From Syntrophomonadaceae bacterium (lineage in GTDB: Bacteria > Bacillota > Syntrophomonadia > Syntrophomonadales > Syntrophomonadaceae): a stretch of 24,000 nt of DNA. The notes under the pieces are model-generated. The model was not told the origin of the DNA. It ran no database searches and worked only from the letters and a program-made list of their open reading frames with translations. This document shows positions 10,343 to 23,671 of the stretch, one piece after another. Position 1 is the stretch's first letter. Every line of letters starts with the position of its first letter. A program made the translations under genes and the position numbers. Location of the stretch: contig CAXXWF010000001.1 of NCBI GenBank assembly GCA_963665865.2, positions 3,299,077 to 3,323,076 on the forward strand, in the 5' to 3' direction.

Positions 10343-10567
10343 ATGGCAGTTACTGCTACTTCTGTAACCACTGATCTGATTCTGGTAATGGACAACGGAC
10401 TCGGTGCATCCGGGCAGCCCCTTAGTCAGAACCGCATTTACAAAAATGTGAAGATCAGTGCTACCAATGAAGACGTCTACGCAGTTGCCCAGTCCCTGAT
10501 CGGGCTGCAGAGTAAGACCAACAATGCCATTCAGCGCAGAAACGTGGTTGAACTCGAGTCTGTATAA
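10343..10567 (+). CDS. DUF1659-like small protein (74 aa)
   Basis: GGAGGTG RBS 7 nt upstream. The sequence pattern ...NGLGASGQPLSQNRIYKNVKISATNEDVYAVAQSLIGLQ... fits my recollection of the DUF1659 family. It is paired with a DUF2922-like gene, as is typical in Firmicutes. Confidence 0.7.
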   Translation: MAVTATSVTTDLILVMDNGLGASGQPLSQNRIYKNVKISATNEDVYAVAQSLIGLQSKTNNAIQRRNVVELESV

Positions 10568-10609
10568 TCCAGGGTTAAGTAAACTATTCTAAGAAAGGAG
10601 GTCCTGCAG

Positions 10610-10834
10610 ATGGCAGCTGTAAGAGTCCTGGAAATGGACTTTAACACCGAGCTGGGCCGTACCCAGCGCATCCGGGTTTATGATGCCAAAGATCCGCTGA
10701 CCAGCGCCGAAGTGGCTCTTGCCATGGATGACATCATCGCCAAAAACATTTTTACCGGCACAGGCGGCAACCTAACCGGCAAGATAGAGGCCCGTCTGGT
10801 AATCACTGACAGCTCCGATATAGTCCTTGTCTAA
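10610..10834 (+). CDS. DUF2922-like small protein (74 aa)
   Basis: AAGGAGG RBS. The pattern LEMDFNTELGRTQRIRVYDAKDPLTSAEVALAMDDIIAKNIFTGTGGNLTGKIEARLV matches the DUF2922 pattern recalled from memory (small, Firmicutes-restricted, downstream of DUF1659). Confidence 0.7.
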   Translation: MAAVRVLEMDFNTELGRTQRIRVYDAKDPLTSAEVALAMDDIIAKNIFTGTGGNLTGKIEARLVITDSSDIVLV

Positions 10835-14076: not shown

Positions 14077-14106
14077 TTTACATTGAATTAGAGAGTATAG
14101 TATAAT
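14077..14106 (+). promoter_or_regulatory. Sigma-A-type promoter driving the c-di-GMP-I riboswitch transcript
   Basis: TTTACA (14077-14082), 18 nt, TATAAT (14101-14106). The aptamer begins about 25 nt downstream. Confidence 0.55.
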
Positions 14107-14130
14107 AATGGAAAATATAATTGTATAAAT

Positions 14131-14228
14131 GGCCTTGAAGGGCAAACTTGTCGAAAGATAAGGACGCAAAACCAAAGGGTCTAAGTCGTTTTTGACGATA
14201 TGACAGCCGGGTTGCTAGAGATCATGCC
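14131..14228 (+). promoter_or_regulatory. c-di-GMP-I (GEMM-I) riboswitch aptamer
   Basis: The sequence is GAAGGGCAAACUUGUCGAAAGAUAAGGACGCAAAACCAAAGGGUCUAAGUCG...CGAUAUGACAGCCGGGUUGC. It carries the class-I signatures GGGCAAAC, a GAAA-capped hairpin (UUGUC/GAUAA) and GGACGCAAA(A/G)CC. It also has a tetraloop-receptor-like UCUAAG...UAUGA and GCCGGGUUGC. These align by eye with the V. cholerae Vc2 aptamer as I recall it. Confidence 0.85.
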
Positions 14229-14237
14229 TTAAGTAGG

Positions 14238-14285
14238 AATCTCCTTAAAAGGTATGGTTATGAGATTTTAAGGAGGTTTTTTGTT
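14238..14285 (+). terminator. Expression-platform hairpin of the c-di-GMP-I riboswitch (terminator-like; also sequesters the RBS)
   Basis: AAUCUCCUUAAAA (14238-14250) pairs with UUUUAAGGAGGUU (14266-14278): 13 bp including one G-U. UUUUGUUG follows. The right arm contains the AAGGAGG RBS of the GTG start at 14286. Confidence 0.6.
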
Positions 14286-14564
14286 GTGGATTTTAGCTGT
14301 ATTGTTCCCAGAATCATAAAGGAAAGTGTAGCCGTATTCAAGGACACAAGCATAGAAGAAATTAAGAATATTCTAATCTTAAAAGAAGAATTAATAGCAG
14401 TCGGGTATAATCCCAATGAGGTCAATTACATGATTGCAACCTTTAGTAATAACGTGGATATTGCTAAGCTTAATTCTAAACAGCTTAAGAAAACTGAAGA
14501 ACGATTAAAAGAACAGCTGTCTATCGCCAGAGAATGTATAGCATTCATCCGAGACCCCCAATAG
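14286..14564 (+). CDS. Hypothetical 92-aa protein, the only cargo of the c-di-GMP-I riboswitch
   Basis: GTG start 9 nt after AAGGAGG. Predicted to be soluble, helical and charged (…LKKTEERLKEQLSIARECIAFIRDPQ). I recognise no family. A terminator overlaps its stop codon. Confidence 0.6.
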   Translation: MDFSCIVPRIIKESVAVFKDTSIEEIKNILILKEELIAVGYNPNEVNYMIATFSNNVDIAKLNSKQLKKTEERLKEQLSIARECIAFIRDPQ

Positions 14565-14579
14565 GGGCCTCATTTTTTG
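14551..14579 (+). terminator. Rho-independent terminator after the 92-aa ORF
   Basis: GAGACCCC, loop caata, GGGGCCTC (one A-C mismatch), followed by ATTTTTT. Confidence 0.5.
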
Positions 14580-14604
14580 CCTTCTTACGGAAAATAACCC
14601 GTTC

Positions 14605-14838
14605 TTATTTAATGATTATATTCTGAATAGATTCAGCTTTGGCCGTTCCCGTTGCGTTGTACTTGGTCAGTACAAAGCGGTATGTACCTTTAGTGCTGCC
14701 CGCAGGAAGTGTAAGATTTGCTGCTCCTCCCGAAATGCTCACCGGTTGGTTCGCCTGGCCAGAAACATTTGCATAGGAGATGCCATATTTTTGTTGGAGG
14801 GTGGATTGCACGTTCCCGGTACCCAGAATTTGAATGGG
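14605..14838 (-). other. Out-of-frame C-terminal continuation (about 77 codons) of the GLUG-repeat gene
   Basis: The frame of track ORF 14605..14811 stays open upstream to 14868. From 14838 it reads PIQILGTGNVQSTLQQKYGISYANVSGQ...TYRFVLTKYNATGTAKAESIQNIIIK. This joins naturally to ...AAAVSVPIT of the 1010-aa ORF if the C4 run (plus-strand GGGG, 14836-14839) is read as C5. The annotated tail of the 1010-aa ORF (PFKFWVPGTCNPPSNKNMASPMQMFLARRTNR) looks like out-of-frame sequence. Confidence 0.7.
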
Positions 14839-22068: not shown

Positions 22069-22722
22069 TTATATTGTTGCTGGTGCTACCTGTGTGGCTG
22101 TAACCTTAATCAGCAGATTATAGGTTGTGCGAGAACCTCCACCCGCGGAAGCAACGCCAAGTGCAGTATCGGTTGTATCGGTTGCGCCAGCTGTTGCAGT
22201 AGTTCCATCAAAAGCCCATCTCCAGTAAACGGTATGACTAGTGTTTCCGCCTGCTTCGGCAAGCTGAATACCCAGGCCGTTTAATGCAGTTTTCAATGCG
22301 GCATCACCATTCAATATAACGGCTGTCCCATCCGTAAAAGGCTTATCAATGCTGTACTCCATAGGGACATTAGCGCCTGTTTTAGTAATATCAAAGGTAA
22401 TATCCGCCGCAACGTCACTGTTGTTAGTTAGATTCAGAACAAAGTTGTCACTAATTCCAGGAGCAATGATTTTTGGAGTAGTTGTTAGGATATTTGTATT
22501 AAATGCGTGTGAAAATAAGTCAAGGTTCGCTACAGCCGGATCAATGGCAAAATCATGGGTACCCTCTTTAATAGCCAAGCTCCATTTGGCCACCAGGGCC
22601 GTATCCTGCCCAGCGTACACACTGGTGTACTTAGCGAAGGTTCCCGAAAGCATAACTGTTGAAATCAGACAGACTACTAAAAGCAGTCCCCCAAGTCTAA
22701 AAGTCTTTCCTGTAATATTCAT
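22069..22722 (-). CDS. TasA/BsaA/camelysin-like secreted protein (217 aa), candidate major fibre subunit
   Basis: The signal peptide ends in SGTFAKYTS, in register with the SipW-cognate signal pattern GTxAxF(S/T)D (TasA: GGGTWAAFND). Motifs: IIAPGISDNFVLNLTNN, VPMEYSI, HTVYWRWAFDG, and the terminal strand YNLLIKVTATQV (compare TasA ...FSFEATQ). It is the first structural gene after sipW and is followed by strong hairpins. RBS AAGGGGGA. Confidence 0.7.
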   Translation of the reverse strand: MNITGKTFRLGGLLLVVCLISTVMLSGTFAKYTSVYAGQDTALVAKWSLAIKEGTHDFAIDPAVANLDLFSHAFNTNILTTTPKIIAPGISDNFVLNLTNNSDVAADITFDITKTGANVPMEYSIDKPFTDGTAVILNGDAALKTALNGLGIQLAEAGGNTSHTVYWRWAFDGTTATAGATDTTDTALGVASAGGGSRTTYNLLIKVTATQVAPATI

Positions 22723-23552: not shown

Positions 23553-23579
23553 AAAAAGCCACCACATAAATGTAGTGGC
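23553..23579 (-). terminator. Intrinsic terminator forming the expression platform of the c-di-GMP-II riboswitch
   Basis: On the minus strand: GCCACUACA (23579-23571), loop UUUA, UGUGGUGGC (23566-23558), then UUUUU (23557-23553). The stem is 9 bp with one G-U. The left arm includes the CCAC that forms the aptamer P1 3' strand. Confidence 0.75.
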
Positions 23580-23643
23580 CGGTTGCGTCTCAAGCTACTG
23601 TAGGTCAGACGCCCAATTTACGCCCACAGATCATCGCTTCCAC
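23575..23643 (-). promoter_or_regulatory. c-di-GMP-II riboswitch aptamer in the operon leader
   Basis: The minus strand reads GUGGAAGCGAUGAUCUGUGGGCGUAAAUUGGGCGUCUGACCUACAGUAGCUUGAGACGCAACCGGCCAC. I recall the C. acetobutylicum class-II aptamer as ...GGAAACAAUGAUGAAUGGGUUUAAAUUGGGCACUUGAC...GUGCAACCGACCGUGC. The two share GGAA.C.AUGAU, UGGG..UAAAUUGGGC, a closing helix (GCGUCU/AGACGC here) and GCAACCG.CC. Confidence 0.82.
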
Positions 23644-23671
23644 ATTAATATCCTATTATTCTACCTAATAT

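What the first reader, a model, noticed from the sequence alone, without database searches (positions are those of the whole stretch)
14077..14285. A second c-di-GMP riboswitch, of a different class (GEMM-I), brackets the other end of the locus
A near-textbook GEMM-I aptamer sits behind a TTTACA-18-TATAAT promoter. It has GGGCAAAC, a GAAA hairpin, GGACGCAAAACC, a tetraloop-receptor-like UCUAAG/UAUGA and GCCGGGUUGC. It is followed by a 13-bp hairpin plus U tract that also buries the RBS of the downstream ORF. It is transcribed convergently toward the 3' end of the fibre operon. Both c-di-GMP riboswitch classes therefore flank one locus. This suggests reciprocal or layered control, with class II ON for the fibre. 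The class I polarity cannot be resolved by eye, because only a weak 5-bp GAGAU/AUCUC anti-terminator candidate is visible.
Basis: partly seen in the sequence, partly recalled or inferred. Interest (0 to 1): 0.66.

Follow-up and report, generated by a model that had tools for sequence, protein, structure and literature searches.

The report
c-di-GMP class I OFF riboswitch
This is a genuine but ordinary RNA sensor for the bacterial signal c-di-GMP, most likely wired to shut off a small uncharacterised protein when the signal is high; its position beside the fibre operon looks incidental.

Summary
Rfam RF01051 (c-di-GMP-I) matches 14131-14219 (+) at 74.9 bits against a cut-off of 35.

I resolve the polarity as OFF, by inference. 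The 3' strand of P1 (14218-14225) overlaps the 5' strand of a conserved 11-bp antiterminator (14220-30: 14249-59). The partner of that strand is the conserved GGUAUGG in the terminator loop. In 12 related leaders the antiterminator is 96% paired. Enforcing P1 gives the terminator in 12 of 12 leaders. The flgB leader of the same genome has the same design.

The only cargo is a 92-aa helical protein that is followed by its own terminator. It matches no Pfam, NCBIfam or PDB entry. Its family sits behind a c-di-GMP riboswitch in about 22 of 31 loci across the phylum: class I, class II or II-GAG.

The idea that the two riboswitches bracket one locus is not supported as a functional unit. Adjacency to the fibre operon occurs only in the closest relatives, and the two do not co-occur across genomes.

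The closest precedent is the C. difficile class I OFF riboswitches that control small sporulation proteins (PMC13724677).

The parts
14077..14106 (+). Sigma-70-type promoter: TTTACA (14077-82), 18-nt spacer, TATAAT (14101-06). Inferred transcription start near 14113.
   Evidence: 11 of 12 matches. A similar TTTACA...TATA(A/C)T arrangement is visible by eye in L025, L026 and L028/L033. The start site was not measured.
14129..14136 (+). P1 5' strand (AUGGCCUU). It pairs with 14218-14225.
   Evidence: 86% of cells paired in 12 leaders, 3 pairs with compensatory changes, slid controls 30-59%. One mismatch is conserved (14133 x 14221).
14131..14219 (+). c-di-GMP-I (GEMM-I) aptamer. It has a GAAA tetraloop (14153-56) and a tetraloop-receptor-like UCUAAG/UAUGA.
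   Evidence: RF01051, 74.9 bits against a cut-off of 35, E 2.7e-13, full-length model match.
14218..14225 (+). P1 3' strand (GAGAUCAU). Six of its 8 nt (14220-25) are shared with the antiterminator 5' strand.
14220..14259 (+). Antiterminator hairpin ('helix A'): 14220-30 pairs with 14249-59 (11 bp). An inner AGGA/UCCU helix (14235-38 : 14242-45) ties up the core of the terminator 5' arm.
   Evidence: -16.1 kcal/mol, z = -3.7, 0 of 200 shuffles as good; 96% paired in 12 leaders, one U-A to C-G compensatory change, slid controls 29-47%; predicted in all 12 leaders (-13.9 to -18.9 kcal/mol).
14238..14282 (+). Intrinsic terminator that also sequesters the RBS. The stem is 14238-50 : 14266-78, the loop 14251-65 and the U tract 14277-82.
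   Evidence: -14.4 kcal/mol, z = -3.3; an equivalent hairpin plus U tract is present in all 12 related leaders.
14270..14276 (+). Ribosome-binding site AAGGAGG, inside the terminator 3' arm.
   Evidence: Read directly from the sequence. It is conserved in relatives as AAGGAGG or a one- or two-base variant (AAGGGGG, TAGGAGG, AGGGAGG).
14286..14564 (+). The only cargo: a GTG-initiated 92-aa helical protein of an uncharacterised family (motifs LKExLIxxGYNPxEVxYMI and QLxIAxxC).
   Evidence: pLDDT 81; helices 20-39, 43-53, 64-89. No family in Pfam or NCBIfam. No fold or PDB match. The profile search found 72 cluster representatives.
14551..14578 (+). Terminator hairpin GAGACCCC-CAAUA-GGGGCCUC plus U6. 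It overlaps the stop codon and ends the monocistronic unit before the GLUG gene.
   Evidence: -12.2 kcal/mol, z = -2.2. An equivalent GGCCCC...GGGGCC hairpin is seen at the ORF end in L015/L021 and L033.
23568..23650 (-). Context only: the class II c-di-GMP aptamer in the leader of the minus-strand SipW/TasA-like/GLUG operon.
   Evidence: RF01786, 44.4 bits (below the cut-off of 53.5), E 7.6e-7.

Best explanation
This is a genuine class I c-di-GMP riboswitch that acts as an OFF switch on a monocistronic 92-aa gene.

Transcription starts near 14113 from the TTTACA/TATAAT promoter.

Without ligand, P1 (7 pairs and one mismatch) loses to an 11-bp antiterminator, 14220-30 : 14249-59. That helix uses 6 nt of the P1 3' strand and the conserved GGUAUGG of the terminator loop. 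An inner AGGA/UCCU helix ties up the core of the terminator 5' arm. Polymerase then reads through and the RBS is free.

With c-di-GMP bound, P1 is locked and the antiterminator loses its 5' strand. The hairpin 14238-50 : 14266-78 forms. It stops transcription at U14277-82, before the GTG at 14286. In any transcript that escapes, it buries AAGGAGG.

Shown here: the aptamer, the helices, their conservation, and their mutual exclusivity in nested folding.

Inferred: the ligand, the start site, the polarity, and the in vivo effect.

The cargo belongs to an uncharacterised small helical protein family that is often placed behind c-di-GMP riboswitches. It is therefore probably an output of c-di-GMP signalling that is made at low c-di-GMP in this lineage.
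For: Aptamer: 74.9 bits against a cut-off of 35.

P1: 86% paired with 3 compensatory pairs.

Antiterminator: 96% paired with one compensatory change (U-A to C-G) and several one-sided changes that keep pairing (C-G to U-G, G-U to A-U). Slid controls give 29-47%. GGUAUGG lies in a terminator loop, where nothing but pairing explains its conservation.

Folding of the window leader: the unconstrained MFE of 14107-14285 contains the antiterminator (-43.3 kcal/mol). Enforcing the aptamer plus P1 gives the terminator (-36.0).

Folding of all 12 leaders: enforcing P1 gives the terminator and no antiterminator in 12 of 12. Unconstrained, 7 of 12 show the antiterminator and 5 of 12 the terminator. The two states usually lie within a few kcal/mol, as expected for a bistable switch.

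Conservation of the unit: 11 of the 12 other loci in the close clade carry GEMM-I directly upstream.

Same design in the same genome: the tandem GEMM-I leader of flgB has a P1 3' strand, then GAUCGUACCU:AGGUAUUGAUC, then a terminator. The flgB class I riboswitch of C. difficile is an experimentally shown OFF switch (PMC6366702).

Precedent for the cargo type: class I riboswitches that repress small-protein genes by premature termination (PMC13724677).
Against: No experiment or transcript data could be obtained.

Covariation is thin: 12 related leaders and only one double change in the antiterminator.

The antiterminator shares only 2 nt directly with the terminator 5' arm, plus 5 nt through the inner 4-bp helix. 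An H-type pseudoknot in which the antiterminator and most of the terminator coexist is not excluded sterically, and nested-structure folding cannot evaluate it.

In 5 of 12 leaders the terminator state is already the unconstrained MFE. In L024 it is favoured by about 14 kcal/mol. Control must therefore be kinetic.

A longer fold (14112-14300) put the terminator in the MFE.

PMC13724677 reports that plasmid reporters of comparable C. difficile riboswitches behaved opposite to the chromosomal loci. Polarity read from structure alone can therefore mislead.
Confidence: 0.78

Rival explanations
1. ON switch: c-di-GMP binding prevents the terminator and RBS hairpin and induces the 92-aa protein together with the fibre operon.
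For: A distant family member (L055) sits behind a class II aptamer whose 3' end runs directly into the terminator 5' arm, which is an ON design. Polarity therefore varies within the family. Plasmid reporters of similar C. difficile class I riboswitches rose with c-di-GMP (PMC13724677).
Against: With P1 enforced, nothing competes with the terminator in any of 12 leaders. The terminator lies 19 nt beyond the aptamer and shares no nucleotide with it. The only conserved competitor of the terminator also competes with P1.
Confidence: 0.06
2. The hairpin acts mainly or only on translation by hiding the RBS. The U tract is just the spacer between the RBS and the start codon and gives little termination.
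For: The 3' arm is the RBS. A distant homologue (L036) keeps the ACCAUACC/GGUGUGGU helix and an anti-RBS, but I saw no U tract after it by eye. The stem is AU-rich (-14.4 kcal/mol).
Against: All 12 close leaders keep 4-9 U directly after the stem. C. difficile class I riboswitches on small-protein genes act by premature termination (PMC13724677). The polarity (OFF) is the same either way, so this differs only in the step that is controlled.
Confidence: 0.1
3. The two riboswitches form one regulatory module around the fibre locus. The 92-aa protein is an antagonist or regulator of the fibre, made only at low c-di-GMP, as in the C. difficile ZmpI/CD2831 pair. Alternatively, convergent transcription gives antisense interference.
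For: Adjacency is kept in the closest relatives, L025-L027. The polarities are opposite if class II is ON. The minus-strand operon has no U tract after the shared hairpin, so operon read-through would be antisense to the small ORF. The ZmpI precedent is described in PMC6366702.
Against: In homologues of 52-74% identity (and their duplicate captures) the unit lies beside DUF1659/DUF2922 genes, with YvrJ and VanZ as well in L028/L030. G004, G007 and G020 have the small protein but no match to the fibre subunit. G015 and G028 have the subunit but not the small protein. The family occurs behind c-di-GMP riboswitches in 17 of 277 genera sampled in the phylum. The + strand unit has its own terminator.
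Confidence: 0.1
4. The aptamer senses a different dinucleotide, for example 3'3'-cGAMP as in the GEMM-Ib variants.
For: The GEMM-I fold is known to have been retuned to cGAMP in Geobacter (from my own knowledge). Ligand binding was not tested here.
Against: RF01051 outscored the variant families of its clan. The position before the GC pair of GGCAAAC is G (14141). From memory, that position is A in the cGAMP-selective variants. Thirteen GEMM-I copies in this genome precede flagellar, Flp-pilus and surface-protein genes, which is classic c-di-GMP cargo.
Confidence: 0.04

Closest known systems
Cd1 / Cdi-1-3, the class I c-di-GMP OFF riboswitch of the C. difficile flgB operon (PMC6366702)
   Same: A GEMM-I aptamer followed by an intrinsic terminator. 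Ligand binding favours termination. This genome's own flgB leader uses the same platform design as the window element.
   Different: The cargo here is a single small gene, not a 23-kb flagellar operon. The terminator also hides the RBS. The element is single, whereas the flgB leader of this genome carries two aptamers in tandem.
Cdi1_6/8/9/10/11 riboswitches with the CD1980.2/CD2309 small-protein family of C. difficile (PMC13724677)
   Same: A class I c-di-GMP riboswitch, then a monocistronic small-protein gene of unknown biochemistry, repressed by c-di-GMP through premature termination. Some paralogues lack riboswitches. Multi-copy cases also occur here: L030 has two units 2.4 kb apart.
   Different: The C. 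difficile proteins are 58 aa and membrane-associated through a hydrophobic C-terminal helix, and are reported to have no homologues outside C. difficile. This protein is 92 aa with a charged amphipathic last helix and no hydrophobic segment. The profile search returned no hit shorter than 64 aa. This family spans many genera of the phylum and is also found behind class II and II-GAG aptamers. No link to sporulation has been shown here.
ZmpI (class I, OFF) and CD2831 (class II, ON), adjacent genes in C. difficile (PMC6366702)
   Same: Neighbouring genes under opposite-acting c-di-GMP riboswitches of the two classes. One of them encodes a surface structure.
   Different: ZmpI is a protease with a known substrate relationship to its neighbour. 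Here no functional link is evident, and neither synteny nor co-occurrence is conserved.
Vc2 (Vibrio cholerae), the reference GEMM-I aptamer
   Same: The same Rfam family, with a GNRA tetraloop and receptor and the conserved GGCAAAC and GACGCAAA cores.
   Different: The host phylum and the expression platform differ. The comparison with Vc2 itself rests on my own knowledge and was not run here.

Membership tests
c-di-GMP-I riboswitch (GEMM-I, RF01051) | Covariance-model score above the curated gathering threshold over the full model | tested here: met
   74.9 bits against 35, model positions 1-87 of 87, E 2.7e-13. It outscores the other families of clan CL00126.
c-di-GMP-I riboswitch (GEMM-I, RF01051) | Two side-by-side hairpins, one capped by a GNRA tetraloop and the other carrying a tetraloop receptor | tested here: met
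   GAAA at 14153-56. UCUAAG...UAUGA at 14180-85 / 14199-203 follows the 11-nt receptor pattern with a U-A pair in place of C-G.
c-di-GMP-I riboswitch (GEMM-I, RF01051) | Conserved junction nucleotides (AAxGGCAAAC, GACGCAAA, AGC), which include the ligand contacts | tested here: met
   All upper-case consensus positions of the model except the last C of the 3' U-CC are matched in the cmscan alignment. Assigning individual contacts (G20, A47, C92 of Vc2) rests on memory and was not checked.
c-di-GMP-I riboswitch (GEMM-I, RF01051) | A closing helix P1 that links the aptamer to the expression platform | tested here: met
   14129-36: 14218-25. 86% paired in 12 leaders, with 3 compensatory pairs.
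c-di-GMP-I riboswitch (GEMM-I, RF01051) | Selective, high-affinity binding of c-di-GMP | not testable with these tools
   Needs in-line probing, ITC or gel shift.
Transcriptional OFF riboswitch (Cd1 type) | The antiterminator shares nucleotides with the P1 3' strand and excludes the terminator | tested here: met
   6-nt overlap (14220-25). The structures are mutually exclusive in nested folding of 12 of 12 leaders. A pseudoknot alternative was not evaluated.
Transcriptional OFF riboswitch (Cd1 type) | Ligand-dependent increase of the terminated transcript | not testable with these tools
C. difficile CD1980.2/CD2309 small-protein family (PMC13724677) | About 58 aa with a hydrophobic C-terminal helix and membrane association | tested here: not met
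   92 aa. The last helix is KQLKKTEERLKEQLSIARECIAFIRDPQ, charged and amphipathic.
C. difficile CD1980.2/CD2309 small-protein family (PMC13724677) | Detectable sequence homology | tested here: inconclusive
   The profile search of 1.84 billion representatives gave 72 hits, the shortest of 64 aa. The C. difficile sequences themselves were not available for a direct comparison.

The most novel reading that the evidence does not exclude
The 92-aa protein represents a widespread family of small helical proteins in this Bacillota phylum (GTDB sense) that serve as dedicated outputs of c-di-GMP riboswitches. The family has been captured independently by class I, class II and II-GAG aptamers, with both polarities. 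It would be a soluble counterpart, with many genera, of the species-restricted C. difficile sporulation-promoting small proteins. If so, small regulatory proteins are a general effector layer of riboswitch-based c-di-GMP signalling in Gram-positive anaerobes.
Probability: 0.4. Interest if true: 0.6.

Novelty: new member of a known kind. Interest (0 to 1): 0.38.

Why it matters
The riboswitch itself is routine. GEMM-I elements are abundant in anaerobic Firmicutes, and this genome alone has 13.

The value lies in two things. First, the expression platform is clear and conserved enough to test: P1, antiterminator and terminator/RBS, with the polarity assigned.

Second, the cargo is informative. 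It is an unannotated small-protein family that sits behind a c-di-GMP riboswitch in about two thirds of 31 loci examined, and those riboswitches belong to three aptamer types. A 2026 study showed that class I riboswitch-controlled small proteins link c-di-GMP to sporulation in C. difficile, and reported no homologues elsewhere. An analogous and much more widespread family would make it possible to ask whether such proteins are a general output layer of c-di-GMP signalling.

The work also removes a tempting over-interpretation, that the two riboswitches bracket one locus.

Tried and rejected
1. It pairs in the window, but the sequences are not conserved in L015, L017 and others. I replaced it with the 11-bp helix.

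2. Antisense action of riboswitch read-through on the GLUG 3' end. The ORF ends in its own hairpin plus U6, so two terminators would have to be passed.

3. Functional annotation of the 92-aa protein.
- Pfam, NCBIfam and a PDB profile search gave nothing.
- Foldseek against PDB gave its best E-value at 1.2.
- Weak RuvA_C, RecX and DUF5333 hits (E 5e-4 to 0.09) probably reflect only a helix-GY-helix motif.

4. Searching metagenomes with the wide alignment A2 failed because it has no conserved stretch. A1 added only L033 and L036.

6. Direct comparison with the C. difficile small proteins: no sequences are held.

7. MAFFT put the terminator 5' arm out of register in 5 leaders. I therefore assessed the terminator per sequence with RNAfold rather than by column counts.

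8. Polarity of the class II-GAG leaders L051-54 and L056: I looked by eye only and could not resolve it.

Full report
OBSERVATION

cmscan of the whole window against Rfam 15 returns one match above its gathering score. It is RF01051 (c-di-GMP-I) at 14131-14219 on the + strand: 74.9 bits against a cut-off of 35, E 2.7e-13, covering model positions 1-87.

The promoter TTTACA-18-TATAAT (14077-14106) matches 11 of 12 positions and is the best site in the region.

The hairpin 14238-50: 14266-78 folds at -14.4 kcal/mol (z = -3.3) and is followed by U14277-82. Its 3' arm contains the RBS AAGGAGG, 9 nt before the GTG at 14286.

At a relaxed threshold the 'other' riboswitch appears at 23650-23568 (-). 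It is RF01786 at 44.4 bits, under the cut-off of 53.5, with E 7.6e-7.

ORGANISM AND GENOME CONTEXT

The window is C1:3299077-3323076 of a 3.83-Mb genome. Same-genus genomes are labelled uncultured Syntrophomonas sp..

The genome carries 13 GEMM-I matches. They precede:
- flgB, as a tandem pair;
- a Flp pilin, as a tandem pair;
- an HU-family protein;
- several secreted proteins, one behind a four-fold tandem array.

EXPRESSION PLATFORM AND POLARITY

The 92-aa ORF has homologues in related genomes and metagenomes. In 11 of the 12 other close-clade loci a GEMM-I aptamer lies directly upstream.

An alignment of 12 non-identical leaders (A3) shows three conserved helices.

1. P1 is 14129-36: 14218-25. 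It is 86% paired, has 3 pairs with compensatory changes, and has one conserved mismatch.

2. The antiterminator is 14220-30: 14249-59. It is 96% paired, against 29-47% when the partner is slid by 1-3 columns. It has a U-A to C-G double change in L042, and one-sided changes that keep pairing. Its 3' strand is the conserved GGUAUGG in the terminator loop. RNAfold predicts this hairpin in all 12 leaders at -13.9 to -18.9 kcal/mol. It usually has an inner AGGA/UCCU helix, or a CUUAAG/CUUAAG extension, that ties up the terminator 5' arm.

3. The terminator and RBS hairpin is present in all 12 leaders.

P1 and the antiterminator share 14220-25. In the window, the unconstrained MFE of 14107-14285 contains the antiterminator (-43.3 kcal/mol). 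Enforcing the aptamer plus P1 yields the terminator (-36.0).

Across the 12 leaders, enforcing P1 gives the terminator and no antiterminator in 12 of 12. Unconstrained, 7 show the antiterminator and 5 the terminator, mostly within a few kcal/mol of each other. This is the classic logic of an OFF switch: ligand, then P1, then no antiterminator, then termination before the start codon plus occlusion of the RBS.

The flgB leader of the same genome has the same design: a P1 3' strand, then GAUCGUACCU:AGGUAUUGAUC, then a 16-bp terminator. The flgB class I riboswitch of C. difficile is an experimentally established OFF switch (PMC6366702).

Caveats:
- No experimental or transcript data were available.
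- Covariation is limited.
- The direct overlap between antiterminator and terminator is small, so a pseudoknot cannot be excluded.
- The fold of 14112-14300 placed the terminator in the MFE.

THE CARGO

The ORF 14286-14564 ends in its own hairpin plus U6 (14551-78), so the unit is monocistronic.

The protein is predicted to be helical (pLDDT 81; helices 20-39, 43-53 and 64-89). It matches nothing in Pfam or NCBIfam, in PDB by fold or in PDB by profile.

A profile search of 1.84 billion representative proteins finds 72 clusters, mostly of 65-95 aa. They share LKxxLxxxGYxxxEVxYMI and QLxIAxKC. In a sample of 401 genomes of the phylum, 19 genomes in 17 of 277 genera have a member.

Of 31 distinct loci examined:
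- 15 have c-di-GMP-I directly upstream, plus one more at 34.9 bits;
- 5 have c-di-GMP-II-GAG;
- 1 has c-di-GMP-II;
- 9 have none.

In L055 the class II aptamer runs directly into the terminator 5' arm, which is an ON design. Polarity may therefore differ between lineages.

One metagenomic contig carries two paralogous riboswitch-gene units 2.4 kb apart.

IS IT A BRACKET OF THE FIBRE LOCUS?

The positional statement is true in this genome and in its closest relatives (L025-L027: CNNM, then riboswitch plus ORF, then a convergent GLUG-family gene).

In homologues of 52-74% identity (and their duplicate captures) the same unit is followed by DUF1659 and DUF2922 genes. In L028 and L030, YvrJ, an amidase and VanZ follow as well. 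The window's own DUF1659 and DUF2922 copies lie at 10343-10834.

Among 61 related genomes:
- the small protein occurs in G000, G001, G004, G007 and G020;
- the fibre subunit (22069-22722) occurs in G000, G001, G015 and G028.

I therefore read the adjacency as lineage-specific.

One untested possibility remains. The minus-strand operon has no U tract after the shared hairpin, so operon read-through would be antisense to the small ORF.

COMPARISON WITH KNOWN SYSTEMS

The element meets every computable criterion for GEMM-I. It works like Cd1/Cdi-1-3 (PMC6366702).

The nearest precedent for the whole unit is the set of C. difficile class I riboswitches Cdi1_6/8/9/10/11. They repress a family of 58-aa membrane-associated proteins that promote sporulation (PMC13724677). 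That family is reported to lack homologues outside C. difficile. It differs from the protein here in size and in having a hydrophobic C-terminal helix. I treat it as an analogue, not as the same family.

VERDICT

This is a real riboswitch and a new member of a known kind. Its polarity is resolved as OFF, with about 0.78 confidence. The interpretation as a bracket of one locus is not supported. The most interesting lead is the cargo family's repeated association with c-di-GMP riboswitches of different classes.

Noticed in passing
own genome G000:C1:2356130-2356983 (-), outside the window: Four near-identical GEMM-I aptamers (84.7-85 bits) lie in tandem with a 256-257-nt period. The three upstream units each carry their own GGGCC...GGCCC hairpin plus U run; the unit next to the gene has a similar hairpin but no U run. 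The array precedes a roughly 441-aa protein with an N-terminal hydrophobic segment that looks secreted. A four-fold tandem riboswitch array is unusual.
   Followed up: partly
own genome G000:C1:2304298-2304476 (-) and 2760994-2761205 (-): Tandem pairs of GEMM-I aptamers lie upstream of flgB (Flg_bb_rod) and of a Flp/Fap pilin gene that is followed by a likely prepilin peptidase. The flgB platform mirrors the one in the window.
   Followed up: partly
own genome G000:C1:1353196-1353278 (+): A GEMM-I aptamer (82.1 bits) with a terminator sits directly upstream of an HU/IHF-family DNA-binding protein (PF00216, E 4e-24). This is uncommon cargo for a c-di-GMP riboswitch.
   Followed up: partly
own genome G000:C1:748446-748530 and 1828238-1828322 (+): Two GEMM-I copies have nearly identical downstream leaders and terminators. 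The second is followed by an ORF that looks by eye like an IS200-type tyrosine transposase, which suggests an insertion has separated the riboswitch from its original cargo.
   Followed up: no
L051-L054, L056 (c-di-GMP-II-GAG) and L055 (c-di-GMP-II): Distant members (about 70 aa) of the small-protein family lie immediately downstream of class II-type aptamers in six genomes from five genera. L055 has an ON-type overlap between the aptamer 3' end and the terminator.
   Followed up: partly
L030:492-924 and L030:2849-3276: Two paralogous units of GEMM-I plus a 91-92-aa gene lie 2.4 kb apart on one metagenomic contig. The proteins are 68% identical to the window protein over 74 residues.
   Followed up: yes
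L042:1755-1985: A group II intron (RF02005, 99.8 bits) begins about 50 nt after the small-protein gene in genome G081.
   Followed up: no
window 14605-14811 (-): The 68-aa ORF after the GLUG gene's stop is 91-93% identical to the C-terminal end of the neighbouring convergent genes in L025-L027. In L025 and L026 that gene is called down to the position where the match ends (757-758 aa).
   Followed up: partly
window 14540-14610 (-): Read on the minus strand, the hairpin shared by the convergent genes has no U tract after it. The fibre operon therefore lacks an obvious intrinsic terminator, and its read-through would be antisense to the 92-aa ORF.
   Followed up: no
window 10343-10834 (+): DUF1659 and DUF2922 genes lie here. 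Copies 74-85% identical follow the riboswitch-small-gene unit in L022, L028 and L030. This points to a rearrangement in the window's lineage.
   Followed up: partly
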